A DNA stretch of 64,000 bases from an uncultured Chromatiales bacterium (GTDB taxonomy: Bacteria; Bacteroidota; Ignavibacteria; SZUA-365): positions 821 to 64,820 of the forward strand of contig CAZWNO010000004.1 of assembly GCA_964635845.1 (NCBI GenBank). The letters run 5' to 3'. The position numbers and the translations under genes were made by a program. How positions within the stretch are numbered: the first letter of the stretch is position 1; every line of letters begins with the position of its first letter. Positions 5,874 to 29,210 of this stretch are shown piece by piece. Under the pieces are notes generated by a model that worked only from the letters and a program-made list of their open reading frames with translations, searched no databases and had not been told where the DNA came from.

Positions 5874-6078
5874 ACGGGGCTCCGTTGATGGGAGTATGGT
5901 TGCTCTCGTCCCGGGTATCGGGGGAAAGCCTGTTGTCGTGTGAAGGGACGGTGGATAATATACGACACGTTATATCCGAATACAACATATCCGACGGTCA
6001 GCCGCGCGTGGACGCGGCGCGCGACCGTTCCGCCTAAGCTCCGCTTTGCGGAGCGAAGGCGGATGGCTATCTTTCCGC

Positions 6079-6807
6079 ATGATTGAAATACGGAACCTGC
6101 GAAAATCCTTCAACGGCAACGACGTCCTGCGCGGTGTGGACCTGACGATTCCCACCGGCGAGACCATCGCCGTCATCGGTCAGAGCGGCTGCGGGAAGAG
6201 CGTACTGCTCAAGCATATCATCGGACTGCTCACGCCGGACGAGGGGGAGATTCTCGTCGACGGACAGAATGTGCACAGGCTGCCGTCGAAAGAACTGTAT
6301 CTCCTGCGGGGCCGCTTCGGTTTTCTGTTCCAGGGCGCGGCGCTCTTCGATTCGATGACCGTGCTCGAGAACGTGTCGCTGGGACTCGTCGAGAATTCCC
6401 CGATGACGGAAAAAGAGATCCGCGGCATCGTCGCGGAGAAGCTCGCCCTTGTCGGCCTGCCCGGGATCGAGGACAAGAAGCCGGCCGAGCTTTCCGGCGG
6501 CATGCGCAAGCGTGTCGGCCTTGCGCGCGCGCTCGCGACGAATCCCGATTACATCCTCTACGACGAACCGACGACAGGGCTCGACCCCGTCATGTCCAAC
6601 CAGATCGACGCACTCATCGCCGAAATCACGGGCAAGCTCAGCGCCACCTCGATCGTCGTCACCCACGACATGTTCAGCGTCTACAACATCGTCGACCGCG
6701 TGGCGCTGATGCACGAGGGACGCATCTATTTTTCCGGGACGCCTGCGGAGTTCCAGTCTGCGGATGACCCGGTGATTCGCGATTTTATTGAGCGGTTTGG
6801 AAAATAG
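6079..6807 (+). CDS. ABC transporter ATP-binding protein, MlaF/Ttg2A-like (copy 1)
   Basis: Walker A GQSGCGKS, signature LSGGMRKRVGLARA, Walker B ILYDEPTTGLD, H-loop VTHDM. Identical to copy 2 except for the last ~25 codons. Confidence 0.85.
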   Translation: MIEIRNLRKSFNGNDVLRGVDLTIPTGETIAVIGQSGCGKSVLLKHIIGLLTPDEGEILVDGQNVHRLPSKELYLLRGRFGFLFQGAALFDSMTVLENVSLGLVENSPMTEKEIRGIVAEKLALVGLPGIEDKKPAELSGGMRKRVGLARALATNPDYILYDEPTTGLDPVMSNQIDALIAEITGKLSATSIVVTHDMFSVYNIVDRVALMHEGRIYFSGTPAEFQSADDPVIRDFIERFGK

Positions 6808-6809
6808 GC

Positions 6810-7025
6810 TGTAGGCTTTAAGCTGTAAGCGGAAGGCAAGAAGGCAGAAGTGTAGCTTCGTTATGCCGATTGGACGCCCTGGGAGCGGCGCGCACCAGCG
6901 CGCGGTAGCCAGGTACCGCGGTGTTGATGGTGAAGGCTGGACGCAGAAGTGTCGCTTCGTCATGCCGAGTGGTCGCCCTGAGTCCGCCTGAGGCGGACGA
7001 AGGGTGACCGTATCGAGGCACGGCA
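6810..7025. repeat. Cluster of degenerate intergenic repeats (GTCATGCCG family plus an inverted copy of the 29.1 kb hexamer repeat)
   Basis: gaagtgtagcttcgttatgccgattggacgccctg and gaagtgtcgcttcgtcatgccgagtggtcgccctg are two related copies. gaccgtatcgaggcacggcag at 7005..7025 matches the 3' half of the 40-bp repeat at 10724 and 12099. Confidence 0.6.
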
Positions 7026-7083: not shown

Positions 7084-9672
7084 CTACCGCGCCACGGGAA
7101 GGCGCAGCAGCGACTGTCCTTCCGGGGTGATCAGCAGGACGATGTAAAGACCCGATGGCACGGGGGGAATCGTGATCGCGAGTTGATGGACTCCGGAGTC
7201 CATTGTCCCGAATTCAGTCCTGCCGAGTTCCCGACCGAGCATGTCGAACAGGACTGCGCGCAGCGGCATGCGGTGTGCGAGTTCGACGGCCAATGTCGCC
7301 GATGTCGCTGCGGGAACGGGATACACCGCATGGATGCGCAGCGCCGTCGGGAGCGGAGCGGCAGACACGATGCCGGTCGGCAGTTTTCCCGATCCGTACA
7401 GGTAAATCTTCAATTCCGGATGCATCGGGTCGTTTGTCGCGAAGAGCAGGTAGGTATGGAAATATCCGGTGGATCGCGGAGAAAACCGGATCCAGAGGGG
7501 CTGCGGTTCGAATGGTTTGATCTCCTTTGGGAACGGTTCCTCGATCGCGAAGTGCACGCTGTCCGCGCCGTCGAAGCGCGGCGATCCGAGCCGCATGATT
7601 GTCCCGCCCGCATTGATGGGAAAGTACCCCCGCACCTGGGAGTCCCCGACGGCGACCGCGTCGAACGGCAGTGATCCGTATGCCGGCTGGAGCACCGGCC
7701 ACGGCGGCCAGCCGACGGACGCGCGCAATGCGGTGCGTGTTGGCGTAACGCTGACGGCATCATGGTCGATCAGCATCGTGGCGGAAAGACCTGCCGTGCT
7801 TGAAAACACGCATCGCAAGGTGAGTGAATCCATCCCGTGCGCCGGAAGCTCGGCGGCCGGTGCGCGAAGAAGCTGGAACAGCTCCGCATCGGGTCCTTCG
7901 ATTGTCACGGACCGGATGCGCAGCGGCGCGGCGTTCGGATTCTCTATCAGGAGTGTCGTATCCGATATTATTTCCGCACCGATGTATCCGAAATCCACGA
8001 GCCCGGGAATCCGCGGCGGCAGATCTTCATCCGCCGGCGCGGTGAAGCAGCGCACGCTCACTTCGCGGATGTACCCTGACGGCGGTGCGGTCGACTCGAT
8101 GAGCAGCCGTCCGAATTGCGTCCCCGCCTGTTGTCCGCCCTGTTCCAGAAGGAGCACGGCATTGCTCCGCGCGGGGATCAGCCGGGGGATCGGGGGAACG
8201 ATGCGCAGCACATCGGTGTCGAAATCGGGGAGTTCGATCGAGTGAATATCCAGCGGTCTCCCGCCGGTGTTGCGCAGCACGACCGCATGCGTTGTCGGAG
8301 TTCCCTCCCGCGTGTCGCACATGACCGCATCCTGCACGCTCAGTTCAGGCTGCAGCTGGCGGGTGTTCCGGATCGCGCCCGAGGCGATGATCGCATGCAG
8401 GCAGCCGTCTGTGAATACCGCATTCGTCAGCCGCGCATCGCAGCTGTCGTTCAGGCTGAGGTTCCACGCGTCGAAGAGGAGCAGCCCGACAGTATCGGTT
8501 GTCAGAAATGCGGGCGCGAGACTCGTCCACTGGAGTGAGGTCTGTCCGGGGATGAAAGTCATCGGCGCGTCCGGGCGAAGCGCCGCGGACGAGGTAGTGT
8601 CCAGACCGATGAAGCGGATGGTGCCGTTCCCGAACTCGATCGAGCAGGTGAACGGGGGCAGCGAATCCCGCGGGAAGGCGCGGTCGGTCAGCAGCGGCAG
8701 GCGCGCCCGCCCGTCCTCGCCGACCTCCGCCACGCCGAGCGCGAAGCGCACCGGGGTGAGCTGCGTCGAATCGTAGCGGGACCGATAGGTCCTCGCCACG
8801 GAAAGGGTGTCGTTGCAGACATCGGAGAACAGCAGCCGTGATGTCCGCAGCAAGCCCCTGGGACATGGTTCCGGCATCGCGTACACGGCGGAACACTCGT
8901 TGAACCGCTCCGTCGCGAGGCGGAGCGCTTCCTCCATGATCGAGGTCAGCTGAGTGGGATAAATGGTCTGGAAGTATTTTCCGCCCGTGAGCATGGCGAG
9001 CATTTCCATATCCGAATTCGGAGTGGAACTCCCCAGCGAGATGGCGACGATGCGGATGTGTTCCTTCTGTGCGAGCGCGATGATCTCGGCGACGGTTCTC
9101 GAGGAACTTCCATCCATTCCGTCTGTGAGGCACACGAGCGTGCGGGCGTTGCCGGACGCCGAGCTGGCGATCTCGATCAGCGCCGTGTAGATGCCGTCGT
9201 AGAGGGACGTGAAGCCGCTCGGTTCCAAGGCATCGACGGCGGCGTGCAGCTTCGCGGCTTCGTTCGTCAGCTTCTGGGCCACCGTCACGTCGGTCGAGAA
9301 CCAGACCACCGCCGCCTCGTCCGTCGTCCATACCATCCGATCGATGAGCGCATGCATCGCCTCCCGCAGACCCCGTATCCCGTAGCCGGTCATGCTGCCG
9401 CTGTGGTCGAGCGCGAAGCCCATCGTGACCGGGTAACGCAGTCCGGGCTCGGGACAGAACAGGTCGAACCGCGCGACATCGACGGAATCGTTTTCGATGA
9501 TGCGAAGCCGGTCTTTCGTAACTCCGACGATGCTGCCGTCACAGGCGAGTGACCAGTAATATTCCACGTCCGGGTGGAGGTACGCGATGCGCGCCGATCG
9601 CAACTCGGGCTGCGCGGCCGCCGGATAGGCGAGGATGGTCAAAAGGATGAAGGTAAAAAGCCGCGCGATCAT
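7084..9672 (-). CDS. Large secreted von Willebrand factor A (vWA, MIDAS DxSxS) domain protein with a T9SS C-terminal sorting domain
   Basis: Signal peptide MIARLFTFILLTILAYPAAAQ (the ORF could extend to 9735). MIDAS motif FALDHSGSM. C-terminal GLYIVLLITPEGQSLLRLPVAR has the T9SS tail pattern. Confidence 0.7.
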   Translation of the reverse strand: MIARLFTFILLTILAYPAAAQPELRSARIAYLHPDVEYYWSLACDGSIVGVTKDRLRIIENDSVDVARFDLFCPEPGLRYPVTMGFALDHSGSMTGYGIRGLREAMHALIDRMVWTTDEAAVVWFSTDVTVAQKLTNEAAKLHAAVDALEPSGFTSLYDGIYTALIEIASSASGNARTLVCLTDGMDGSSSRTVAEIIALAQKEHIRIVAISLGSSTPNSDMEMLAMLTGGKYFQTIYPTQLTSIMEEALRLATERFNECSAVYAMPEPCPRGLLRTSRLLFSDVCNDTLSVARTYRSRYDSTQLTPVRFALGVAEVGEDGRARLPLLTDRAFPRDSLPPFTCSIEFGNGTIRFIGLDTTSSAALRPDAPMTFIPGQTSLQWTSLAPAFLTTDTVGLLLFDAWNLSLNDSCDARLTNAVFTDGCLHAIIASGAIRNTRQLQPELSVQDAVMCDTREGTPTTHAVVLRNTGGRPLDIHSIELPDFDTDVLRIVPPIPRLIPARSNAVLLLEQGGQQAGTQFGRLLIESTAPPSGYIREVSVRCFTAPADEDLPPRIPGLVDFGYIGAEIISDTTLLIENPNAAPLRIRSVTIEGPDAELFQLLRAPAAELPAHGMDSLTLRCVFSSTAGLSATMLIDHDAVSVTPTRTALRASVGWPPWPVLQPAYGSLPFDAVAVGDSQVRGYFPINAGGTIMRLGSPRFDGADSVHFAIEEPFPKEIKPFEPQPLWIRFSPRSTGYFHTYLLFATNDPMHPELKIYLYGSGKLPTGIVSAAPLPTALRIHAVYPVPAATSATLAVELAHRMPLRAVLFDMLGRELGRTEFGTMDSGVHQLAITIPPVPSGLYIVLLITPEGQSLLRLPVAR

Positions 9673-9900
9673 GACATTCGAATCGGATGCCAGGTGCTGC
9701 ATGTTCCGCAAGCGGGGACAATCCTGTTTTTTCACGGTGGAGTCTCTGGAGAGTGACGGTAAAGGATCAAACTCTCCGGATTAACCCGAATGACGAGGGA
9801 AAGTTACATTCGAGACGGCATGCAGGCGGGGCCTCCGTGCCGGGAGTGCGTCCGCCCGGGTTCCGCTTTGCGGAGCGAAGGCGGATGGCTATCTTTCCGC

Positions 9901-10629
9901 ATGATTGAAATACGGAACCTGCGAAAATCCTTCAACGGCAACGACGTCCTGCGCGGTGTGGACCTGACGATTCCCACCGGCGAGACCATCGCCGTCATCG
10001 GTCAGAGCGGCTGCGGGAAGAGCGTACTGCTCAAGCATATCATCGGACTGCTCACGCCGGACGAGGGGGAGATTCTCGTCGACGGACAGAATGTGCACAG
10101 GCTGCCGTCGAAAGAACTGTATCTCCTGCGGGGCCGCTTCGGTTTTCTGTTCCAGGGCGCGGCGCTCTTCGATTCGATGACCGTGCTCGAGAACGTGTCG
10201 CTGGGACTCGTCGAGAATTCCCCGATGACGGAAAAAGAGATCCGCGGCATCGTCGCGGAGAAGCTCGCCCTTGTCGGCCTGCCCGGGATCGAGGACAAGA
10301 AGCCGGCCGAGCTTTCCGGCGGCATGCGCAAGCGTGTCGGCCTTGCGCGCGCGCTCGCGACGAATCCCGATTACATCCTCTACGACGAACCGACGACAGG
10401 GCTCGACCCCGTCATGTCCAACCAGATCGACGCACTCATCGCCGAAATCACGGGCAAGCTCAGCGCCACCTCGATCGTCGTCACCCACGACATGTTCAGC
10501 GTCTACAACATCGTCGACCGCGTGGCGCTGATGCACGAGGGACGCATCTATTATTCCGGTACGCCCGCCGAATTCCAGTCCGCCGACGATCCGGTGATCC
10601 GCGATTTCATCGCGCGGTTCGGAAAATAG
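9901..10629 (+). CDS. ABC transporter ATP-binding protein, MlaF/Ttg2A-like (copy 2)
   Basis: Nucleotide-identical to copy 1 from about 9864 to about 10548. It then diverges almost only at synonymous sites, with F to Y and E to A replacements. Confidence 0.85.
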   Translation: MIEIRNLRKSFNGNDVLRGVDLTIPTGETIAVIGQSGCGKSVLLKHIIGLLTPDEGEILVDGQNVHRLPSKELYLLRGRFGFLFQGAALFDSMTVLENVSLGLVENSPMTEKEIRGIVAEKLALVGLPGIEDKKPAELSGGMRKRVGLARALATNPDYILYDEPTTGLDPVMSNQIDALIAEITGKLSATSIVVTHDMFSVYNIVDRVALMHEGRIYYSGTPAEFQSADDPVIRDFIARFGK

Positions 10630-10722
10630 GCGATAGGCGATAGGCGGTTGGCGGCAGGCAGTGGGCAGCAGGCGGCAGGCAGTGGGCAGCAGGCGGCAGG
10701 CAGTGGGCAGCAGGCGGCAGGC
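10628..10722. repeat. Tandem repeat, 21-bp unit ggcagcaggcggcaggcagtg, about 3.5 copies, preceded by gcgatagg x2
   Basis: Direct reading of the sequence. Confidence 0.8.
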
Positions 10723-10723
10723 C

Positions 10724-10763
10724 GTCATGCCGGGCAGGTCGCGAAGCGACCGTATCGAGGCAC
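10724..10763. repeat. 40-bp repeat gtcatgccgggcaggtcgcgaagcgaccgtatcgaggcac (copy a), abutting the ATG of the next gene
   Basis: Identical copy at 12099..12138 and a partial copy at 7005..7025. Contains a small hairpin gtcgc-gaa-gcgac. Confidence 0.8.
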
Positions 10764-12050
10764 ATGAAACAAGGTACCATTGAAATGAAGAAAATACAGA
10801 TAGATAATTCGAATTTCGAACTCTTCGACATGCCGACACGCGAAGATACGAAGGATGGAAACGGAAGTCCCGCTCGCGGCAGCCACAGCCTGGTCATTCA
10901 TCCCCGGTCCGGCAGCGTGCTGTCGAAGGAGGAAAAACAGTTCAACCGCCTCACCAGGGAGATCGCGGATCTCCAGCGACGGATCGGGGAGAGGACGGTC
11001 GAACTGGACAAAATACTCGACCTCTACCATGCGCGGTTGTATCCGCTGCGGAAGGAGGGCGCGGAACTGGATATCGAATTCGCCCGCCTCATCGCCACTG
11101 CGGCGCGGACGATGCGCTTCGGGAAGAACCAGGTGGAACGCGTCCGATACTTCATCCGGGATCTGTTCGAGAACGCGTTCGTCCTCGTCGAGCCCGATCC
11201 CGATACAATCGCCCTGTACGACGCGTGGGCGGAGGTCCTCGACGAGGAGGAGAAGAAGGAAACCCTCAATGCAATGAAAATCAGCATCGAGGAGTATGCG
11301 AGAGAAATGTTCGGTATGGACCTCGACATTTCGGAGAAGGAGCTTTCGGAACTCGACGGGAGTCCCGAATCCTACGCCCGCTTCCTGAGCCGTCTCATCG
11401 AACAGATGAGCGGGAAATCCTGGGAGGATATGCCTCCGGAACGCCCGCGCCGGAAAACGGCGAAACAGCTCGCCGCGGAAGAACGGAAACGAACGGAAGC
11501 CCTGGCAGAGGCGCGTAACACCCGCGCGATCTATCTTTCGCTCGCCAAGGCGCTGCATCCCGACCTCGCTGTCGACAACGACGATCGCACGCGGCGCGAG
11601 CAGCTCATGCGGCAGGTGACCGCGGCGTACCAGGCAGGCGATATGACGGCGCTGCTCCGACTCGAAATGGAATGGGTCGCCCGGGAAGACGGCGGACTGC
11701 ACCGCATGCCCGAGGAAACACTGCGCTCCATGATCTCCGCGCTCAAGACGCAGGCGGCCGTGCTTCGTGACGAACTACGCGGACTCCCGTACCATCCCCG
11801 TTACGAGCTGCTCGAACGATACGCGGAGATGTCCACCCAGAGAGCGATAAACGCGATCGAACGCGATATGCGAGCATACGATGATCAGATCGACAACAAT
11901 CGCGCGCTGCTGGAATCGATCGGACCGAAACCGACGAAGAAGACGATCATGGAACTGGTGGACGCCGCGGAAGAAGCGGCATCCCAGGACTATTTCTTCG
12001 AGGACATCATCCGGGAGTATGCATCAGGCTTGAAGAAGCGTCACCGGTGA
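10764..12050 (+). CDS. Hypothetical coiled-coil protein with an internal J-domain-like segment (HPD motif)
   Basis: RAIYLSLAKALHPDLAVDNDDRTRREQLMRQVTAAYQAGD resembles J-domain helices II-III with the HPD tripeptide. GC3 supports this frame over the antisense ORF 10725..11702. Confidence 0.45.
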   Translation: MKQGTIEMKKIQIDNSNFELFDMPTREDTKDGNGSPARGSHSLVIHPRSGSVLSKEEKQFNRLTREIADLQRRIGERTVELDKILDLYHARLYPLRKEGAELDIEFARLIATAARTMRFGKNQVERVRYFIRDLFENAFVLVEPDPDTIALYDAWAEVLDEEEKKETLNAMKISIEEYAREMFGMDLDISEKELSELDGSPESYARFLSRLIEQMSGKSWEDMPPERPRRKTAKQLAAEERKRTEALAEARNTRAIYLSLAKALHPDLAVDNDDRTRREQLMRQVTAAYQAGDMTALLRLEMEWVAREDGGLHRMPEETLRSMISALKTQAAVLRDELRGLPYHPRYELLERYAEMSTQRAINAIERDMRAYDDQIDNNRALLESIGPKPTKKTIMELVDAAEEAASQDYFFEDIIREYASGLKKRHR

Positions 12051-12098
12051 CCAGCGATGCATGGCCGTTTCTCGAAGCGGCGCATGGACAGGCAGACC

Positions 12099-12152
12099 GT
12101 CATGCCGGGCAGGTCGCGAAGCGACCGTATCGAGGCACGGTCCCTCGATACG
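12099..12152. repeat. 40-bp repeat copy b, extended by an inverted repeat cgtatcgagg/cctcgatacg that forms a hairpin
   Basis: Identical to 10724..10763. It lies just after the stop of the J-domain gene and is a direct repeat with copy a. Confidence 0.8.
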
Positions 12153-12316
12153 CCGTCCGCCTGCGGCGTCCGGCTACTCGGGATGACAGAAGGAAAATGG
12201 AGATTGTCCAATACAGTTGTATATTTGTCTAATGTCCGAGGAGTGGGAAGTGCTGAGTGCCCAGGCTCGGACATTGGAGGCGACGATCGCGAGAACGCTG
12301 CGGAGGTTTTTCAGGC

Positions 12317-12730
12317 GTGAAAACGGAACTCATTCAGACATTGACCGCGACCTTCGAGGGACACGCCCAACTCACAGAGAACGGTGTGGAATACTGGCTG
12401 GCACGGGATCTTCAGCATCTGCTGGGATATGCAGAGTGGCGGAATTTTCACAACACGGCGATTTCCAAGGCAAGAACGGCCTGTGAGGTCTCCGGGCATT
12501 CGGCATCGGATCATTTTGTTGACGTCAACAAAACGATACAGATGCCGAAAGGTGCGGAAAAGGAACATGTCGCGAACAACGAGGTCGTGCGCAACACTTT
12601 GCTGGAACGCGGCATCCATCCAGAATCGCTCCCCGCTGACGAGGATGTGAAAAAAGTCGAACGGCGGCTTGCTTCCGAAGAAAAGAAATCGCTGAAGAAT
12701 CCGGAAGCTCTGCGAACAGAGGATGCATGA
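12317..12730 (+). CDS. dinD: DNA-damage-inducible protein D-like (DinD / Bro-N domain), short form
   Basis: EYWLARDLQHLLGYAEWRNFHNTAISKARTACEVSGHSASDHFVDVNKTI closely parallels E. coli DinD (WRNFQKV..ATQACEASGHAASDHFVE). A GTG start at 12317 has a GGAGG RBS 9 nt upstream. The ORF as listed begins at 12257. Confidence 0.6.
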   Translation: MKTELIQTLTATFEGHAQLTENGVEYWLARDLQHLLGYAEWRNFHNTAISKARTACEVSGHSASDHFVDVNKTIQMPKGAEKEHVANNEVVRNTLLERGIHPESLPADEDVKKVERRLASEEKKSLKNPEALRTEDA

Positions 12731-14727
12731 AAAAAATCACCCTCAGTAAAGCACCGCTCAGCCTGCTCACGTCGGATGAGTCGCGTTACCGCATCCGCTA
12801 CCGTGACGAGCTCAACGAGGCGCAGTACGAGGCCGCGACGCAGATTGACGGTCCCGTGCTCGTCGTGGCGGGCGCGGGTACGGGCAAGACGCGCACGCTG
12901 ACCTACCGCGTCGCGCGGCTGATCGAGTCGGGCGTGCTTCCCGAGGCCGTGCTGCTGCTGACCTTCACGCGGAAGGCCGCGCGCGAGATGCTGCGCCGCG
13001 CGGCCATGCTGCTCGACGAGCGCACCGAACGCGTCTCCGGCGGCACCTTCCATTCCTTCGCCAACATGGTGCTGCGGCAGCACGCCGCGGAGGTCGGCTA
13101 CGCATCGAATTTCACCATCCTCGACCAGGGCGATTCGGAGGACGTGATCAACGTGCTGCGCTCGCGCCTGGGACTCGCCGCGAAGGAAAAGCGTTTCCCG
13201 CGGAAGCAGACGCTGCAGCGGATGTACAGCGCGACGGTGAACACGCTGACGCCGCTGGAGATCGTCGTGGCGAAGGATTACCCGCAATTCGCCGGACAGA
13301 TCGACGACATCGAGGCGCTCGCGCGCGCGTACGTCGCCTACAAGCGCGCGAATAACATCATGGACTACGACGACCTGCTCGTCAACCTCGTCACCCTGCT
13401 CGAACAGCGCGAGCAGGTCCGCCTCCGCATGGGCGAGCGCTACCGCTACATCATGGTCGACGAGTACCAGGACACCAACAAGCTGCAGGCCCGCATCGTC
13501 CGGCAGCTCGCGGCGACGCACGACAACGTGATGGCCGTGGGCGACGACGCGCAGAGCATCTACTCCTTCCGCGGCGCGAATTTCCGCAACATCATGGATT
13601 TCCCGAAGGACTTCCCGGGCTGCCGCGTCATCACCCTCGAGGAGAATTACCGCAGCACACAGCCGGTGCTGGATTTCACGAACGAAATCATCCGGATGGC
13701 CGCGGAGAAATACAGCAAGACCCTGTACACGACGCGGCGGGAGGGGATGACGCCCGCGCTGATTTCGATGGAAGGCGAAAACACCCAGTCGCGCTTCATC
13801 GCGCAGCAGGTGCTCGAACTCCGCGAGGAGGGCGTGCCTCTCAAGGAAATCTCAGTACTCTTCCGCGCCGGCTACCACAGCTTCGATCTGGAAATCGAAC
13901 TCGCGCGGTACAACATTCCGTACGTGAAATTCGGCGGACTCAAGCTCATGGAGACCGCGCATATCAAGGACATGCTGGCCTACCTGCGCATCGTCGAGAA
14001 TCCGAAGGATGTGATCTCGTGGACCCGGGTCCTGCTGCTGCTCGACGGCATCGGTCCCGTTTCCGCCGAGCGCGTCACCGACGAGATCACGCGCGGGCTC
14101 AATCCTCTCGCCGAGTCCGCGACCGGGCGCCTGATGCAGCTCGTGCGCGGCGCGGAACTCCCGGTGCTTCTCGACGTGCTGCGCGAGGTAGCGCCCGAGC
14201 GCATCGCGCCGGGGGACAAAACCGAGCGCCTGCTCCGATATTACACACCGATTCTCAAGGCGCGGTACGACGACCATCCCAAGCGGCTCAAGGACCTCGA
14301 GATGTTCCAGACCATCGCCGAGCGTTACGGCCAACTCGCGATCATGCTCACCGACATGGCGCTCGAGCCGCCCAACGAGAGCGTCGAGGACCTCCTGCCC
14401 GAGGGACACGAGGATGAATTCCTCACCCTCTCGACCATTCATTCCGCCAAGGGGCTCGAGTGGAACACCGTCTTCGTGATGTATCTCGTCGACGGCCGTT
14501 TCCCCGTCACCGCCGCGGCCGACAGCTTCGAATCTATGGAAGAGGAGCGCCGGCTCTTCTACGTCGCCTGCACCCGCGCCAAGCAGCGCCTCTACCTCAC
14601 CTATCCCACCAACATCTTCGACCGCGCCACCGGCACCATCCTCGGCAAACCCTCCCGCTTCCTCGACGGCATCCCCGACCAGCTCGTCGACGGCTATGTG
14701 GTGGAGAGGGAAGACCGGCAGGATTGA
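12727..14727 (+). CDS. UvrD/PcrA/Rep-family ATP-dependent DNA helicase
   Basis: Motif I VVAGAGTGKTRTLTYR, motif II DEYQDTN, motif IV/V. C-terminal LYVACTRAKQRLYLTY. Confidence 0.85.
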   Translation: MKKITLSKAPLSLLTSDESRYRIRYRDELNEAQYEAATQIDGPVLVVAGAGTGKTRTLTYRVARLIESGVLPEAVLLLTFTRKAAREMLRRAAMLLDERTERVSGGTFHSFANMVLRQHAAEVGYASNFTILDQGDSEDVINVLRSRLGLAAKEKRFPRKQTLQRMYSATVNTLTPLEIVVAKDYPQFAGQIDDIEALARAYVAYKRANNIMDYDDLLVNLVTLLEQREQVRLRMGERYRYIMVDEYQDTNKLQARIVRQLAATHDNVMAVGDDAQSIYSFRGANFRNIMDFPKDFPGCRVITLEENYRSTQPVLDFTNEIIRMAAEKYSKTLYTTRREGMTPALISMEGENTQSRFIAQQVLELREEGVPLKEISVLFRAGYHSFDLEIELARYNIPYVKFGGLKLMETAHIKDMLAYLRIVENPKDVISWTRVLLLLDGIGPVSAERVTDEITRGLNPLAESATGRLMQLVRGAELPVLLDVLREVAPERIAPGDKTERLLRYYTPILKARYDDHPKRLKDLEMFQTIAERYGQLAIMLTDMALEPPNESVEDLLPEGHEDEFLTLSTIHSAKGLEWNTVFVMYLVDGRFPVTAAADSFESMEEERRLFYVACTRAKQRLYLTYPTNIFDRATGTILGKPSRFLDGIPDQLVDGYVVEREDRQD

Positions 14728-16898: not shown

Positions 16899-16934
16899 CG
16901 TACCGGCTGCGAACTCAACACGTGAGGCATCGGC

Positions 16935-17015
16935 GTGAGGGAAAATGTGATTGAGGGAATATTCTCCGCACTGGACGCCGTCAAGCCCACTGGGCTGGGG
17001 ATGGCGGGGTAACTC
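16935..17015. repeat. ~80-bp dispersed repeat, copy A (agggaaaatgtgattgagggaatattc..gacgccgtcaagccc..tgggctggggatggcggggt)
   Basis: About 90% identical to 19575..19655. Both copies lie just after a + strand gene. Confidence 0.75.
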
Positions 17016-17137
17016 CTGCCCCTCGATACATTCGTCTTCGCTTCGCGACTCCGCCTTACTCGGCGTGATGGTACCATGAGGCGTCTGTGATGATGTATCA
17101 AGACGCACGTACGAGAAATAGGGAATACAATCCCTTC

Positions 17138-19508: not shown

Positions 19509-19574
19509 TCCGGAAGCGGAAATCAATCTACCAAGTCTCGTGATGAGTCTGTCCGGGGGTCCCGACGAACTCTT

Positions 19575-19655
19575 CGCCGGCAGGGAAAATGTGATTGAGG
19601 GAATATTCATCGCGCTCGACGCCGTCAAGCCCCATGGGCTGGGGATGGCGGGGTG
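19575..19655. repeat. ~80-bp dispersed repeat, copy B
   Basis: See copy A at 16935..17015. Confidence 0.75.
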
Positions 19656-19863: not shown

Positions 19864-20142
19864 ATGAATGACATGATTCTTTACACCACCGAAGACGGCC
19901 GAAGCCAGATCAAACTGCGGGCGGCTCGGCAGACGGTATGGCTTACCCAGCGAGAAATATCGGAGTTGTTTGATGTGAGCGTGGACAACATCGGCCTGCA
20001 TCTCAAGAACATTTATGAAGATGGAGAATTGGTTCGCGAGGCAACTGCCGAGGAATCCTCGGTAATTCAAATCGAGGGCAACCGTAAGGTGCGCCGCTCC
20101 TCGATACAGACGTCGCGTCGGCTACTCAGGATGAAGGTTTGA
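19864..20142 (+). pseudogene. RhuM-family protein, N-terminal fragment only (92 codons; full-length members are ~340 aa)
   Basis: ILYTTEDGRSQIKLRAARQTVWLTQREISELFDVSVDNIGLHLKNIYEDGEL matches the conserved RhuM N-terminus. The reading frame ends before the core domain. Confidence 0.55.
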
Positions 20143-20151
20143 TTCCATCTG

Positions 20152-20820
20152 TCATTTGTCATCTGTCATATTTCCGTTCTCGGTATGACGGGTGATGACG
20201 GCTTTCCTCTCGGTGAATGTATTCAGTTCCTCGTGGATCCTCGCGCGGAGGGAGCGGCGGACGCGAATGGTGTAGCGCGTGTCGTCGAGATAGGCGCGGT
20301 CGAGCACCTCGACGCCGTGCAGTTCGAGGACGTGATGTACCTGGCTGGTGACGTCGTAGGGGAAGGTGATGAGGAAGGTTTCGGTGAGATGGCGGCGTTC
20401 GATCACGCAGCGGGAGAGCACGGCGTCGGCGGCGTCGGTGTAGGCGCGGGCGAGTCCACCCACGCCGAGCTTCGTGCCGCCGAAGTAGCGCACGACCACG
20501 ATGCCGACGTCGGTCAGTCCGAGACGGTCGATGGCGCCGAGAATGCGCCTGCCCGCGGTGCCGCTCGGCTCGCCGTCGTCGCTGTAGCGGAATTCCATAC
20601 CTTCATATCCGATGCGCCAGGCGAAGCAGTGATGCGTCGCGTTGTAATGCTCCCGGCGCAGGGCATCGAGCGCGGTGGTGAACGTCCCCGCGTCGCCGCA
20701 GGGGATCGCGTAGGAAAGGAAGCGCGATCCGACTATCTTTATTTCCGTATCCTCGCGTCCGGCGACGGTCAGGAAGGAATCATCCGGGGAACTGTGGTGT
20801 TGCTGGTCTGGAGGCGGCAC
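20152..20820 (-). CDS. yigZ: IMPACT/YigZ family protein (UPF0029)
   Basis: GSRFLSYAIP..HHCFAWRIG..DDGEPSGTAGRRIL..VVVVRYFGGTKLGVGGLARAY. Confidence 0.8.
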   Translation of the reverse strand: MPPPDQQHHSSPDDSFLTVAGREDTEIKIVGSRFLSYAIPCGDAGTFTTALDALRREHYNATHHCFAWRIGYEGMEFRYSDDGEPSGTAGRRILGAIDRLGLTDVGIVVVRYFGGTKLGVGGLARAYTDAADAVLSRCVIERRHLTETFLITFPYDVTSQVHHVLELHGVEVLDRAYLDDTRYTIRVRRSLRARIHEELNTFTERKAVITRHTENGNMTDDK

Positions 20821-22012: not shown

Positions 22013-22542
22013 GCCATCTGGAGTCAGGAACAAGGACTTTCCGCACCTTCACACTGTTGCCGAAGAAGTGATGGATCGGGTGGTGATTACTTTCGGTGAC
22101 GGTCTGGTCCGGGGCCAGGGAGCGGCCGAATGACCCCAAGGTAGAGCGTGAGATTATTGCCATGAGCCGGAGCCCGGGAAAGACGACCACAGGGATAATC
22201 CCGGCTGCGGCACATAATGGATTCCGTTTGTCGCAATTAGAACAGATGCGAATCATAAAAAGATAAAATTATTTATTTAAAGGTAAACAGCAGGGAAACG
22301 ATACGCATCGCCGTATGTATGTCCATGGAATTGCACGACTTAGAGAGCAAGAATGTCCGGGTGGGCGAGAACACTTTATCAGACGAACAAGTAGGGAATT
22401 GATTTCAGGTATTGACAAAGTCTGGGCAGGCTGATTATCATTACACCAATAAGATCCGTAACACCCCTTCTCGGAGGACAGGTCGAGTGCCCGGAGAATC
22501 CCCCGGAAACAGACTGAGCTTTTGCGGTTCACCGTACGCCTG

Positions 22543-22730
22543 AACCGTCGAGCCGCGAGAACCGTCGAGCCGTGAGAACTGTCGAGCCGCGAGAACTGTC
22601 GAGGCATGAGAACCGTCGAGCTGCGAGAACTGTCGAGCCGCGAGAACTGTCGAGGCATAAGAACCGTCGAGCTGCGAGAACTGTCGAGCCGCGAGAACTG
22701 TCGAGCCGCGAGAACTGTCGAGCCGCGTGA
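22543..22730. repeat. Tandem repeat, 17-bp unit gagaacYgtcgagcYgc, about 11 copies, in the 5' leader of the gene at 22754
   Basis: Direct reading. Unit length is not a multiple of 3. The ORFs 22269..22802, 22441..22782 and 22529..22786 are repeat artefacts. Confidence 0.85.
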
Positions 22731-24945: not shown

Positions 24946-25407
24946 TTCGTTGGCAAACATCACGCGCTGATTCTTCACGTCCGCCACGACACTGACGTAG
25001 CGATGAACCCGGCTACGCGACATCTCATCGATCGCGATCGCCGTCACATCGTCAAAATCCTCGCGCTCCCGCGTACGTCCAACGTGGTGGTCAAGTATGC
25101 ACTACAGACGCGTGTCACTTTCCCGCACCTGTCGCGCGATGGCAGCGACCGGCATCTGCGGCTCCATGCTCATGACCAGGGCTTCGAAGAGCAATGTGAA
25201 ACCACTGCTCGTCCGCGCCCAAGGGACATGGACATGCAAGACGCCACATCGTTCGCAAATAAATCGGGGAACGCGGGCATGGAGGTAGCAGACATGTTGG
25301 AAGAAGTCAATATGATGCCATTGTTTCTCGACCGTGTCATGCTGCGGAAGGTCCGCAGCAGCACAGATCGGACAGATGAACAGGCGGTCCACCGGGAAGT
25401 CCAGCAA
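24946..25407 (-). pseudogene. ISL3-family transposase remnant A (N-terminal ~150 codons including the zinc finger; C-terminal DDE part absent)
   Basis: MLDFPVDRLFICPICAAADLPQHDTVEKQWHHIDFFQ..RCGVLHVHVPWARTSSGFTLLFEALVMSM matches the ISL3 Tnp N-terminus. About 85% identical to 28505..28900. Interrupted by a stop. Confidence 0.7.
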
Positions 25408-27757: not shown

Positions 27758-28155
27758 GCGCTCATAGCTCTGACATGATGTGTTGAATTGAGCGTCGTCG
27801 ATTTAGGATGTAATATCGATGCAGTTTTGCTGCAAAATAGCGATTAACACGCAAAATATCGATCAGAGCCTTGCCGCGCCCCTCTCTGTCAGGATAGTTG
27901 ACCTTGCGCTGTGAAGTCAGAACTACATCAGTAGCGACGTCAAGTTGCACCTGTGATAAGGTTGGGCCCCTTGATATCGCCGATCAAACAGAGGTATTAA
28001 ACAGGTCTTAGCTGCATCTTTCAAGAGCAGGTGTGTTGAGCGTCAGGAGAAAAGTCGGAAGGCGTATTCGGTCAGGTACGAACGGTTAAGACGAACGTAA
28101 GTCAACCATCGAAGAAGTATCGAGAGCAGCATTCGCCGTCGAAACCGGGATTTAG

Positions 28156-28900
28156 TCATTGTCCCGGGACAAGATGGGAGGGAGCCTGAGTTCTTTTCCA
28201 TTGACACGCGGCATGAAAGTGGCGTGAGAATCGTTCAGGCGCTGGTACGGAACATGGGAATCTGCATACCGATGTCAAGTCAGCCATCCAAGCGGCAATC
28301 CTGTGAGGATCTGAAAATAAAAAGAGGTATGCAGAGGGGGACCGGTCGAAGGTGATTTCCGCATCCGGCAGAGACTCCGCCACTCCAGCGACGAAGGCCG
28401 GCGACATGTCCATGCTGACATGCTTGATCGTGTGAGCCGTGCCGCCATGCGCCTCGAAGTCCGCGGCAAACCGCTCGATGACGTTCTGTCCTTTCCTTTC
28501 GGTGGCAAACAACATGCGCCGCTTCTTCACGTCCGCCACGACACTGACATAGCGATGGCCCAGGCGACGCGACGTTTCATCGATCGCGATCGCCGTCACG
28601 CCGGCAAAATCCTCGCGCTCCCGCGCACGTCCAACATGGTGGTCAAGGATGCGGCACGGACGCGTGTCACTTTCCCGCACCTGTCGCGCGATGGCAGCGA
28701 CCGGCATCTGCGGCTCCATGCTCATGACCAGGGCTTCGAAGAGCAATGTGAAACCACTGCTCGTCCGCGCCCAAGGGACATGGACATGCAAGACGCCACT
28801 GTGCTCGCTACGAATTAAGGGAACGCCGGCATGGGGGTAGCAGACATGTTGGAATAAGTTCATATGACGCGATTATTTCTCGACCGTGTCATGCAGGGAA
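28156..28900 (-). pseudogene. ISL3-family transposase remnant B (internal ~215 codons; frameshifted at the 5' end, truncated at the 3' end)
   Basis: GVLHVHVPWARTSSGFTLLFEALVMSMEPQMPVAAIARQV..TAIAIDETSRRLGHRYVSVVAD..RRMLFATERKG matches the ISL3 Tnp, including the start of the DDE domain. Same orientation as remnant A. Confidence 0.7.
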
Positions 28901-29059
28901 TATCAGCAATGGTCGAAGGCGGTCGGAAGTCGAGACATGCCGGCGTATCGAGCCACATTCCGTGCCTTTCACAGCCCTTCGATACGGTCGCCGAGGCGAC
29001 CTATTCGGGCAGACGCACTGCTGCCAACAGCCCGCTACGTCGGGTCTGCGACAAACGGC

Positions 29060-29210
29060 CAACAACCATAAGCTTAAGGCTTAAAGCTTAAAGCCTACAG
29101 CCTACAGCTTACAGCTTACAGCCTACAGCCTACAGCTTACAGCCTACAGCCAAAAGCCCAAAGCCAACGGCCAACTGCCAACTGCCAACTGCCAAAAGCC
29201 AACTGCCATC
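29060..29210. repeat. Simple-sequence region of hexamer tandem repeats (gcttaa / agccta / cagctt / ccaact variants)
   Basis: Direct reading. An inverted short copy lies at 6810..6830. Confidence 0.8.

What the first reader, a model, noticed from the sequence alone, without database searches (positions are those of the whole stretch)
10724..12152. J-domain-like coiled-coil gene exactly bracketed by 40-bp direct repeats, followed by DinD(Bro-N)-UvrD-GNAT
The 40-mer gtcatgccgggcaggtcgcgaagcgaccgtatcgaggcac ends at the base before the ATG of 10764..12050 and recurs 49 bp after its stop. The second copy completes a 10-bp inverted repeat cgtatcgagg/cctcgatacg. Direct repeats flanking a single gene suggest a cassette-like or recombination-prone unit, or a repeated 5'/3' regulatory RNA element. 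The gene itself is unusual: a long coiled-coil N-terminus and a J-domain helix II-III segment with HPD in the middle of the protein. The next genes are a short DinD/Bro-N homologue (a GGAGG-GTG start with a 9-bp inverted repeat atgtccgag/ctcggacat spanning it) and a UvrD-family helicase, pointing to a DNA-damage-related neighbourhood.
Basis: partly seen in the sequence, partly recalled or inferred. Interest (0 to 1): 0.5.

Follow-up and report, generated by a model that had tools for sequence, protein, structure and literature searches.

The report
REP-like hairpin repeats flanking a resident gene
The 40-bp repeat on both sides of this gene is not a cassette boundary but two copies of a small hairpin repeat scattered through this Bacteroidota genome and many other bacteria. 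Elsewhere that repeat family clusters tightly around a small GIY-YIG nuclease gene, which may be its unrecognised partner enzyme.

Summary
**Observation.** It holds. The 40-mer occurs exactly twice (10724-10763 and 12099-12138). The identity really runs 48 nt with one mismatch.

**What the repeat is.** It is not specific to this gene. Each copy is one unit of a modular hairpin element: 5' box TCATCCCGAGTA, a variable stem-loop, then 3' box GTATCGAGGG.
- The window holds seven units in 64 kb, on both strands.
- The downstream copy pairs with an inverted unit to form a head-to-head dimer (12098-12190).
- 103 unrelated hairpin inserts keep their pairing, and the two boxes covary with each other.
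- No Rfam family matches.

**The bracketed gene.** It is a resident chromosomal gene. The order ABC ATPase, this gene, UvrD-family helicase is kept in two relatives at 67-69% identity. Its family has about 4,700 cluster representatives. HPD is invariant and J domains are the best PDB hits, but every score is below threshold.

**Side lead.** Small GIY-YIG nuclease genes sit inside clusters of these units in 4 of 4 independently fetched loci, and in two cultured Alphaproteobacteria. This resembles the REP/RAYT arrangement with a different enzyme. No paper in the searched library describes it.

**Verdict.** The locus is ordinary. The repeat family is worth a follow-up.

The parts
9790..10629 (+). 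ABC-transporter ATPase gene upstream of the repeat. It is a 97% paralogue of 6040-6838.
   Evidence: Pfam ABC_tran E = 3e-35. Self-BLAST aligns 6040-6838 with 9862-10660 at 97.1% over 799 nt.
10626..10722 (+). Tandem array of heptamers (21-nt period GGCGGCAGGCAGTGGGCAGCA, 3.5 copies, preceded by ATAGGCG x3). It lies directly 5' of unit 1.
   Evidence: Tandem Repeats Finder. Similar heptamer arrays lie 5' of three other units in the window.
10716..10763 (+). Copy 1 of the 48-nt direct repeat; the finding's 40-mer is 10724-10763. It contains unit 1: 5' box TCATGCCGGGCA 10725-10736, hairpin GGTCGC-GAA-GCGACC 10737-10751, 3' box GTATCGAGGC 10752-10761.
   Evidence: Unit anatomy follows the consensus.
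10785..12050 (+). Gene for a 421-aa all-helical protein with an N-terminal long helix and a central J-domain-like segment (HPD at residues 258-260 of the 421-aa form). The alternative start at 10764 gives 428 aa.
   Evidence: The NCBI protein P0001 is the 421-aa form. Alignments. AF2 model has pLDDT 74.5. The family has 4,709 representatives at E <= 1e-3.
12091..12138 (+). Copy 2 of the 48-nt direct repeat. It contains unit 2: 5' box 12100-12111, hairpin 12112-12126, 3' box 12127-12136.
12142..12186 (-). Unit 3, in inverted orientation, with consensus boxes (TCATCCCGAGTA and GTATCGAGGG on the minus strand) and a different hairpin (GCCGGACGCCG-CAG-GCGGACGGC). With unit 2 it forms a head-to-head dimer spanning 12098-12190, which folds as a three-hairpin junction.
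   Evidence: Fold of 12085-12200 on the minus strand: -55.9 kcal/mol, z = -3.95. Plus strand: z = -2.7.
12217..12233 (+). Conserved motif TTGTATATTTGTCTAAT, containing TAtaTTTG, which matches the Bacteroidota -7 promoter consensus TAnnTTTG. It is the likely promoter of the downstream gene(s).
   Evidence: The same motif lies upstream of uvrD in L001 and L002. A sigma-70-like match is at 12198-12225. The promoter assignment is inference from the known Bacteroidota consensus.
12317..12730 (+). Short DinD/Bro-N-like gene (the ORF is open from GTG 12257; the likely start is GTG 12317 after GGAGG). It is absent from the syntenic relatives.
   Evidence: NCBIfam PRK11525 scores 141 bits against a cut-off of 242 and covers model positions 2-82 of 288. 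Pfam Bro-N scores 21.8 bits against a cut-off of 25.6. L001 and L002 go straight from the promoter motif to uvrD.
12727..14727 (+). UvrD/PcrA-family helicase. Its start overlaps the stop of the DinD-like gene (ATGA).
   Evidence: Pfam UvrD-helicase E = 1.4e-75 and UvrD_C E = 5.5e-54. It scores below every NCBIfam equivalog cut-off. Members of its 90%-identity cluster are named Bacteroidota bacterium.
6960..7019 (+). Paralogous unit behind the other ABC ATPase copy. It has the same atypical boxes (TCATGCCGAGTG ... GTATCGAGGC) and a second small unit nested in its hairpin (CCTGAG-TCCGCCtgagGCGGA-CGAAGG). A degenerate unit lies at about 6855-6930.
17020..17068 (-). Another unit of the family.
20098..20134 (-). 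Another unit. It overlaps the 3' end of a truncated RhuM-like ORF (19865-20142) and has a short heptamer array on its 5' side (20146-20169).
   Evidence: The RhuM assignment rests on my own reading of the translation and was not tested with a profile.
28976..29009 (-). Another unit (GGTCGC-CTCG-GCGACC hairpin). A long heptamer array (29070-29208) lies on its 5' side.

Best explanation
**The repeat (shown).** The 40-mer is one unit of a dispersed, REP-like hairpin element.
- A unit has three parts: a 5' box (consensus CC-S-N-TCATCCCGAGTA), a G...C-closed stem-loop of almost any sequence and 11-40 nt, and a 3' box (GTATCGAGGG-AC).
- The two boxes pair with each other: three Watson-Crick pairs, a tandem G.A/A.G, then one G-C pair. 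The whole unit is therefore one long irregular hairpin.
- In this window one unit sits in the spacer between the ABC ATPase gene and the J-like gene. A head-to-head dimer of two units sits in the next spacer.

**The gene (shown).** The bracketed gene is an ordinary, vertically inherited chromosomal gene, not a cassette.

**Near-identity of the two flanking copies (inferred).** I attribute the 47/48 identity to recent local copying or gene conversion between neighbouring units 1.4 kb apart.
- The units at 6960, 10725 and 12100 share a private compensatory flip in the box helix (G:C where the consensus has C:G). This marks them as one local lineage.
- That lineage probably spread first with the ABC-gene duplication and then across the J-like gene.

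**How the family spreads or is maintained (inferred).** I propose a small GIY-YIG nuclease that recognises the folded unit, by analogy with REPs and their RAYT transposase. Genes of one GIY-YIG family are embedded in dense clusters of these units wherever I looked. Nuclease-induced breaks repaired from a neighbouring unit would also explain why neighbours are homogenised.

**Local effects (inferred from what is known of REPs).** The units would act as stable hairpins at operon junctions, serving as a 3'-end barrier or attenuator, and as short homologies for recombination.
For: **Repeat and its extent.**

**Other units in the window.** Seven units are present. Matches to the 5' box (up to 2 substitutions) number 14, against 4.7 in mononucleotide shuffles of the window; matches to the 3' box (up to 1 substitution) number 12, against 4.6.

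**Dimer fold.** z = -3.95 on the minus strand.

**Occurrence outside the window.**
- A scan that fixed only the hairpin and the 3' box hit 12 genome contigs. Eight of them also carried the 5' box, which the pattern did not specify.
- Those eight come from Ignavibacteria, Bacteroidetes, Alpha- and Gammaproteobacteria and three actinobacterial genera.

**Structure.**
- The 103 distinct inserts pair at closing positions 2-5 in 86-91% of cases and at position 6 in 74%, against 40-60% in shuffles.
- On a 22-sequence alignment 96.4% of cells are paired against 78% in shuffles (0 of 500 shuffles reach it). 8 of 10 pairs carry compensatory changes. Slid controls give 35-54%.
- The box-box pair at -6:+8 is T:A in 34 units, C:G in 34 and anything else in 6, among 74 units not constrained by the metagenome pattern.

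**No known RNA family or tRNA.**

**Orientation.** No bias relative to flanking ORFs: 25 sense and 29 antisense; 28 between convergent genes and 12 between divergent genes. The gene calls were crude.

**Resident gene.**
- Synteny in L001 and L002.
- A unit lies upstream of the orthologue in both relatives.
- The protein family has 4,709 representatives.

**GIY-YIG link.**
- Four loci in the unit-seeded sample carry the gene next to units.
- 4 of 4 loci fetched by protein identity alone do too. They hold 40 box matches within 350 nt of the gene and none in the remaining 16 kb.
- Variant units flank the gene in Sphingomonas parapaucimobilis and Methylobacterium bullatum replicons.

**Literature background.** REP dimers, and their preference for unidirectional and convergent spacers, are described in PMC3733652.
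Against: **Copy number.** Only 64 kb of the source genome is available, so genome-wide copy number is an extrapolation from about one unit per 9 kb.

**Exact 40-mer.** It was not found in any GTDB species-representative genome. What is dispersed is the family, not this exact sequence.

**GIY-YIG partner.**
- No GIY-YIG gene of the associated family lies in the window, L001 or L002.
- The association is genomic only. The gene could instead be a homing-type gene that targets the units.
- It could also be a housekeeping gene near which units accumulate. In Sphingomonas, Listeria and Bacillus the homologue sits next to an RNA methyltransferase.
- One Sphingomonas paeninsulae homologue (47% identity) has no units nearby.

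**RAYT.** RAYT genes were not searched for systematically.

**Sampling limits.**
- The metagenome sample was selected for perfect boxes, so it says nothing about box variability.
- The ORF calls behind the orientation count are crude: 93 of 217 units fell inside called ORFs.
Confidence: 0.8

Rival explanations
1. The gene is a mobile cassette. The two 40-48-nt direct repeats are recombination sites (att- or attC-like) or a long target duplication left by insertion of the gene.
For: - Exact direct repeats flank a single gene.
- The right end of copy 1 is a sharp junction at 10763. Other units continue ...GGCACGG.
- The orthologue in L002 is also flanked by an exact 24-nt repeat.
Against: - The gene keeps the same neighbours (ABC ATPase upstream, UvrD-family helicase downstream) in L001 and L002 at 67-69% protein identity.
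- A unit already lies upstream of the gene in both relatives.
- The same element flanks unrelated genes, in both orientations.
- No integrase or transposase lies next to it.
- The repeat lacks attC core sites, as read from the sequence.
Confidence: 0.03
2. The repeat is a gene-specific cis-regulatory RNA. The same structured element in the 5' and 3' UTR of the J-like mRNA would bind one regulator, or let the two ends of the mRNA pair through the inverted unit.
For: - A unit lies upstream of the orthologue in all three related genomes. The window and L001 share almost the same hairpin: GGTCGCGAAGCGACC against GGTCGCGAGGCGACC.
- The flanking copies are homogenised in two lineages.
- The 5' unit is complementary to the inverted 3' unit over 13 nt (pair I11).
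- The structure is strongly conserved.
Against: - Identical boxes occur next to unrelated genes in at least four phyla, with no orientation bias relative to transcription.
- Distant homologues of the gene have no such element.
- G-U pairs are rare in the hairpins, about 3-4% of pairs. This fits a structure that must form on both strands.
- No Rfam family matches.
Confidence: 0.1
3. The units are classical GTAG-tagged REPs or REPINs mobilised by a RAYT (Y1/HUH) transposase. The GIY-YIG association would then be incidental.
For: - The consensus reads GTA followed by G in 87% of units, which gives a GTAG directly at the foot of the hairpin.
- Units form head-to-head and tail-to-tail dimers and favour convergent and unidirectional spacers, as described for REPs (PMC3733652).
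Against: - The G of this GTAG is paired, and the conserved boxes extend well beyond a 4-nt tag.
- Hairpin sequences are highly variable while the boxes stay constant. In REP families the reverse holds.
- Across about 1 Mb of unit-containing loci, the one gene family found repeatedly embedded in unit clusters is GIY-YIG.
- No RAYT was noticed among ORFs bracketed by units. RAYT was not searched with a profile.
Confidence: 0.12
4. The bracket is an assembly artefact: a chimeric join at a short repeat in a metagenome-assembled genome.
For: - The source appears to be a MAG.
- Contigs of relatives often break at these repeats: L002 starts inside a unit, and most GIY-YIG contigs are very short.
Against: - The gene order across both repeat copies is reproduced independently in L001 and L002.
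- The coding sequence is intact and full length relative to its homologues.
Confidence: 0.02

Closest known systems
REP / BIME / REPIN elements (repetitive extragenic palindromes) with their RAYT transposase
   Same: - Short GC-rich intergenic hairpins.
- Many copies, on both strands.
- Frequent inverted dimers (head-to-head and tail-to-tail).
- Preference for spacers between convergent or co-directional genes.
- A GTAG-like motif at the foot of the stem.
- A single enzyme gene embedded in clusters of the repeats.
   Different: - The constant part is the pair of boxes (about 12 and 10 nt), which pair through a tandem G.A motif. The hairpin sequence is free. In REP families the hairpin itself is the conserved repeat.
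- The boxes are nearly identical across phyla, whereas REP families are mostly lineage-specific.
- The associated gene is a roughly 105-aa GIY-YIG nuclease, not a Y1/HUH transposase.
CGTC-tagged REP superfamily (Di Nocera et al. 2013, PMC3733652)
   Same: - Reported in Bacteroidetes, Chlorobi and Alphaproteobacteria.
- Mostly head-to-head dimers.
- Said to lack a dedicated transposase.
- The Bacteroidota copies here begin CGTCAT, and the 8-mer TCATCCCG would also be encoded by the CGTC-3 peptides VIPGLDPGI listed in that paper's Additional file 3.
   Different: - CGTC REPs are described as simple 8-9-bp stems with 4-5-nt loops and a CCA tail.
- In the metagenome sample the base before TCAT is not usually G.
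- The family consensus figures are not held in the library, so identity with any CGTC family could not be checked.
Integron attC sites / gene cassettes
   Same: - Conserved boxes at both ends of a variable, structure-conserved imperfect palindrome.
- Here the repeats flank a single gene.
   Different: - No RYYYAAC/GTTRRRY core sites and no integrase.
- Units occur in both orientations and are dispersed, not arrayed.
- The bracketed gene is syntenic in relatives.
J-domain proteins (DnaJ/Hsp40 co-chaperones, Pfam PF00226)
   Same: - The central segment aligns with helix II, the HPD loop and helix III of J domains.
- HPD is invariant in the family.
- The AF2 model places HPD in the loop between two antiparallel helices.
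   Different: - All scores are below threshold.
- Helix I and the usual N-terminal position are missing.
- The rest of the roughly 400-aa protein (a long N-terminal helix and C-terminal helical bundles) matches nothing known.

Membership tests
REP / BIME (repetitive extragenic palindromes) | Short imperfect palindrome able to form a stem-loop | tested here: met
   Hairpin with covariation: 96.4% of cells paired against 78% in shuffles, and 8 of 10 pairs with compensatory changes. 103 different inserts pair.
REP / BIME (repetitive extragenic palindromes) | High copy number, dispersed in intergenic regions of one genome | tested here: inconclusive
   Seven units in the 64-kb window, next to unrelated genes. 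The rest of the genome is not available.
REP / BIME (repetitive extragenic palindromes) | Conserved unpaired tetranucleotide tag (GTAG or CGTC) at one end | tested here: inconclusive
   GTA+G is present in 87% of units, but the G is paired. The two bracket copies read GCAG. CGTCAT is seen only in some copies.
REP / BIME (repetitive extragenic palindromes) | Units commonly arranged as inverted dimers | tested here: met
   Head-to-head dimer at 12100-12186. Tail-to-tail dimers in L005, L010 and L140.
REP / BIME (repetitive extragenic palindromes) | Cognate RAYT (Y1/HUH) transposase gene flanked by the repeats | tested here: inconclusive
   No RAYT was seen among ORFs bracketed by units. A GIY-YIG gene is the one flanked by units. 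No profile search for Y1_Tnp was run.
Integron gene cassette / attC | attC with R''/R' core sites (RYYYAAC ... GTTRRRY), cassettes in one orientation next to intI | tested here: not met
   The sequence of the unit has no such cores. Units lie on both strands. No integrase is nearby. The gene is syntenic in relatives.
MITE | Terminal inverted repeats plus short target-site duplication | tested here: not met
   Flanks outside the boxes show no conserved duplication or pairing. Only the dimer has TIR-like ends, because it is two inverted units.
Rfam RNA families / tRNA | Score at or above the family threshold | tested here: not met
   Nothing at the gathering threshold in this region. The best E-value in 12060-12260 is 0.48. 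ARAGORN finds nothing.
J domain (Pfam PF00226 DnaJ) | Profile score at or above Pfam's gathering cut-off (27.8 bits) | tested here: not met
   16.2 bits, E = 0.011 for the window protein. All 13 members hit, with best E = 5e-4, but all below the cut-off.
J domain (Pfam PF00226 DnaJ) | Invariant HPD tripeptide in the loop between helices II and III | tested here: met
   H258, P259 and D260 are invariant in 13 and in 59 family members. The AF2 model has helices 226-256 and 265-283 on either side.
J domain (Pfam PF00226 DnaJ) | Four-helix J fold; stimulation of Hsp70 ATPase | tested here: inconclusive
- hhalign probability is 53-55%.
- Activity cannot be tested with these tools.
DinD (NCBIfam PRK11525, DNA damage-inducible protein D) | Full-length equivalog score (cut-off 242 bits) | tested here: not met
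   140.9 bits, covering model positions 2-82 of 288. Only the N-terminal Bro-N-like part is present.

The most novel reading that the evidence does not exclude
**The claim.** The CCCGAGTA-hairpin-GTATCGAGGG units, together with shorter relatives of the form CCYGAG-loop-CGARGG, form a very widespread repeat class found across phyla. Its partner enzyme would be a small stand-alone GIY-YIG nuclease rather than a RAYT. This would be a second, independent 'REP plus domesticated nuclease' system.

**How it would work.** The nuclease would recognise the folded unit with its tandem G.A motif and drive copying or gene conversion of units.

**What it would answer.** It could explain who mobilises REP-type repeats that have no RAYT, a question left open for the CGTC REPs in PMC3733652.
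Probability: 0.4. Interest if true: 0.75.

Novelty: new variant of a known kind. Interest (0 to 1): 0.5.

Why it matters
**For this locus.** The result removes a false lead. The gene is not a cassette, and the repeat says nothing specific about it.

**For the repeat family.**
- A short structured element with near-identical boxes occurs in Bacteroidota, Ignavibacteria, Proteobacteria and Actinobacteria. Its stem is free to vary, which is not how ordinary REP families behave.
- It is absent from Rfam.
- If a GIY-YIG nuclease is its partner, this would be a new repeat-plus-enzyme pairing. It can be tested directly with one small protein and a 40-nt oligonucleotide.
- It would also explain many spurious short ORFs and contig breaks in metagenome assemblies.

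**For the protein.** The J-like protein belongs to a large uncharacterised family of about 4,700 cluster representatives with an invariant HPD. These are candidate Hsp70 co-chaperones of unknown client.

Tried and rejected
**Searches that found nothing**
- Exact 40-mer in 185,579 representative genomes: no hit.
- Exact-protein contig look-ups for the 428-aa and 421-aa forms: not on record. The source contig could not be fetched.
- Rfam at gathering and at E <= 10: nothing.
- tRNA or tmRNA: none.
- Intrinsic terminators: none at the units.
- Foldseek of the full-length AF2 model against the PDB: no hit at E <= 0.001 (best E 0.33).
- Literature search by sequence strings returned only primers and unrelated papers.
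- Searches for GIY-YIG together with REP, REPIN or RAYT, and for YhbQ, UPF0213 or COG2827, returned nothing relevant.

**Structural motifs considered by eye and rejected.** The sequence does not fit a hammerhead core, a K-turn or a sarcin-ricin/loop-E motif. Only a plain tandem G.A flanked by Watson-Crick pairs fits the covariation.

**Left open.** Assignment to a named GTAG or CGTC family of Di Nocera et al. could not be made, because the consensus figures are not held in the library.

**Minor result.** A viral-contig scan gave only 22 hits among 2.9 million contigs, so the element is not notably phage-borne.
Full report
**1. The observation**

- The 40-mer is present exactly twice, at 10724-10763 and 12099-12138. 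None is expected by chance, and no further copy appears with up to three mismatches.
- The identity extends to 48 nt with one mismatch, 10716-10763 against 12091-12138.
- Copy 1 ends at the base before an ATG (10764). The protein on record at NCBI (P0001, 421 aa, 100% identical) starts at the next ATG, 10785. The N-termini of the two closest homologues align with that start. 'Exactly bracketed' therefore depends on a start codon that is probably wrong.
- Copy 2 begins 49 nt after the stop and completes a 13-nt inverted repeat.

**2. What the repeat is**

*In the window*
- Copy 2 is the 5' half of a roughly 93-nt element (12098-12190). It folds into a closing stem plus three hairpins: z = -3.95 on the minus strand and -2.7 on the plus strand.
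- Reading that element shows two units in inverted orientation. Each unit has a 5' box (TCATCCCGAGTA in its clean form), a stem-loop and a 3' box (GTATCGAGGG).
- Copy 1 is a single such unit.
- The window holds more units, with different hairpins: 6960-7019 (+), 17020-17068 (-), 20098-20134 (-) and 28976-29009 (-).
- Box matches are about three times more frequent than in shuffled sequence.

*Outside the window*
- A genome scan with a pattern fixing only the hairpin and the 3' box returned 12 contigs. Eight of them also carried the unspecified 5' box.
- Those eight come from Ignavibacteria, Bacteroidetes, Alpha- and Gammaproteobacteria, Microbacterium, Lacisediminihabitans and Janibacter.
- Only 22 of 2.9 million viral contigs carry the pattern.

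**3. Structure**

- The 103 distinct sequences found between the boxes are unrelated to one another, yet nearly all are clean hairpins.
- Closing pairs 2-5 are formed in 86-91% of cases and pair 6 in 74%, against 40-60% in shuffles. Five to six pair types occur per position.
- The boxes pair with each other. Among 74 units not constrained by the metagenome pattern, position -6:+8 is T:A in 34, C:G in 34 and anything else in 6. Position -8:+10 is C:G in 63 and G:C in 5.
- On a gap-free alignment of 22 units, 96.4% of cells are paired against 78% in shuffles (0 of 500 reach it). 8 of 10 pairs carry compensatory changes. Slid controls give 35-54%.
- Between the outer three pairs and the inner G-C pair lies an invariant 5'-GA/5'-GA. 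I read this as a tandem sheared G.A; that is inference.
- G-U pairs are rare. Units show no orientation bias relative to flanking ORFs: 25 sense against 29 antisense, with crude gene calls. Both observations favour a structure used at the DNA level, or on either strand, over a sense-specific RNA.
- No Rfam family, tRNA or terminator pattern fits.

**4. The bracketed gene is resident**

- Thirteen word-indexed homologues were found. A full HMM search finds 4,709 cluster representatives, of which 1,620 score at E <= 1e-30. Nearly all of the 150 best-scoring representatives listed are 360-430 aa.
- The two closest (L001 at 69% identity, L002 at 67%) keep the order VWA protein, ABC ATPase, this gene, UvrD-family helicase, GNAT.
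- Both relatives have a unit upstream of the gene. L001 has almost the same hairpin as the window.
- L002 also carries an exact 24-nt direct repeat on both sides of the gene, with a different hairpin sequence.
- More distant homologues (L135-L139) sit in unrelated contexts without flanking repeats.
- The units are therefore old residents of these two spacers in this lineage, and the gene is not a cassette.

**5. Why the two copies are nearly identical (inferred)**

- The units at 6960, 10725 and 12100 share atypical boxes, TCATGCC... and ...GAGGC. This is a compensatory flip of pair -8:+10, which marks a local lineage.
- 6960 and 10725 lie behind the two 97%-identical ABC ATPase paralogues. 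They most likely separated with that duplication.
- 10716-10763 and 12091-12138 differ at one base, so they were copied or converted recently.
- The same homogenisation in L002 suggests that neighbouring units convert each other.

**6. A partner enzyme? (inferred, from outside the window)**

- I looked for ORFs bracketed by two units in the fetched loci. Two of the ten cases were the same small protein, a GIY-YIG nuclease.
- tblastn and an HMM found it in four unit-seeded loci, each time within tens of bases of units.
- As an independent test I searched for homologues of the protein. There were 316 at E <= 1e-10, all listed ones carrying PF01541, and most on very short contigs.
- I then fetched four contexts chosen only for contig length. 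All four genes sit inside dense alternating arrays of units: 40 box matches within 350 nt of the genes and none in the other 16 kb.
- In finished replicons, the homologue in Sphingomonas parapaucimobilis is flanked by the short form of the unit (CCYGAG-CGAAGT-CGARGG). The one in Methylobacterium bullatum is flanked by a hairpin-bearing variant. A more distant one in Sphingomonas paeninsulae has none.
- This is the REP/RAYT arrangement with a different enzyme.
- The window, L001 and L002 contain no such gene, so nothing can be said about the source genome.
- I found no paper in the held library linking GIY-YIG nucleases with REP-type repeats.
- Di Nocera et al. describe GTAG- and CGTC-tagged REP superfamilies, with the same dimer types and spacer preferences. 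They note that CGTC REPs lack a dedicated transposase (PMC3733652).
- Whether the present family is one of theirs could not be checked.

**7. The protein**

- It is all-helical: AF2 pLDDT 74.5, with a long helix at 48-109.
- H258-P259-D260 are invariant in 59 diverse members.
- Pfam DnaJ is hit by all 13 close members, but below the cut-off.
- J domains are the best PDB hits for the family profile, at E = 3e-4 to 7e-4.
- hhalign against the E. coli DnaJ J domain (sequence typed from my own knowledge) gives 53-55% probability over helix II, HPD and helix III.
- Verdict: a J-like segment is plausible, and membership is unproven.

**8. Neighbours**

- The DinD-like ORF covers only the N-terminal 82 of 288 positions of the DinD model.
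- It lies between a conserved Bacteroidota-type promoter motif (TAtaTTTG, 12220-12227) and uvrD. In the relatives the promoter motif is followed directly by uvrD.
- The helicase is a generic UvrD/PcrA-family member.
- Nothing here ties the J-like gene to the SOS response or to repair.
- The organism is a Bacteroidota MAG, judged from the names in the helicase's 90%-identity cluster.

**9. Verdict**

The J-domain idea is partly supported. The locus itself is ordinary. The repeat family behind it, and its link to a GIY-YIG nuclease, is the part worth pursuing.

Noticed in passing
Loci L053, L064, L079, L080, L140, L145, L148, L149, L150, L151 (outside the window): A roughly 105-aa GIY-YIG nuclease gene (PF01541) is embedded in dense alternating arrays of the same hairpin units. 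Four independent loci hold 40 box matches within 350 nt of the gene and none elsewhere. The short CCYGAG-loop-CGARGG form flanks the gene in Sphingomonas parapaucimobilis.
   Followed up: partly
window 10626-10722, 6807-6850, 20146-20169, 29070-29208: Tandem arrays of 7-nt units (roughly GYRGGCN, for example GGCAGCA, GTAGGCT and GTAAGCT when read in the orientation of the unit) lie directly on the 5'-box side of four of the seven units. Purine-rich or heptamer arrays also adjoin units in the Bacteroidetes MAG loci L006 and L011.
   Followed up: no
window 6040-6838 and 9862-10660: The ABC-transporter ATPase gene is duplicated at 97% identity 3.8 kb apart. A convergent VWA-domain gene (7084-9735, minus strand) lies between the copies. 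Each copy is followed by a heptamer array and units.
   Followed up: partly
window 6960-7019: A unit is nested in a unit. The hairpin GGTCGC...GTGACC carries in its loop a second small element, CCTGAG-TCCGCCtgagGCGGA-CGAAGG. Nested and tandem units also occur in metagenome loci, for example L015, L032, L035, L089 and L099.
   Followed up: no
window 19865-20142: A short ORF resembles the N-terminus of RhuM-family proteins (MNDMILYTTEDGRSQIKL...). It ends inside unit 20098-20134, so the unit supplies its last codons. This looks like a gene truncated at a unit. The RhuM assignment comes from my own reading and was not profile-tested.
   Followed up: no
window 12217-12233; L001 11292-11308; L002 1492-1508: The motif TTGTATATTTGTCTAA(T/A) is conserved in all three genomes. 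It contains the Bacteroidota -7 promoter consensus TAnnTTTG. In the window a DinD-like gene sits between it and uvrD. A 13-nt inverted repeat (12228-12240 / 12266-12278) follows it only in the window.
   Followed up: partly
window 16930-17010 and 19574-19654: An 81-nt direct repeat (89-91% identity) lies 2.6 kb apart. It reads like the last 25 or so codons of a protein (...ENVIEGIF.ALDAVKP.GLGMAG*). The first copy abuts unit 17020-17068.
   Followed up: no
window 27958-28077; 24946-25349 and 28498-28900: A group II intron D1-D4 RNA is present (Rfam RF01999, 54.5 bits). A 400-nt repeat at 90% identity lies 3.5 kb apart nearby, and may mark two intron or intron-associated copies.
   Followed up: no
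window 22542-22727, 38410-38542, 52602-52693, 58572-59693: Several other tandem arrays are present: a 17-nt unit x 11, a 15-nt unit x 8.5, an 18-nt unit x 5, and a 261-nt unit x 2-4. The 261-nt array looks like repeated protein domains.
   Followed up: no
Proteins P0026-P0145: Most contigs carrying the GIY-YIG homologues are only about 0.5-3 kb long. This fits assemblies breaking at the flanking repeat arrays. JGI names several of them 'tRNA/rRNA methyltransferase'. In Sphingomonas, Listeria and Bacillus (yazA) the homologue is adjacent to an RNA methyltransferase gene.
   Followed up: no
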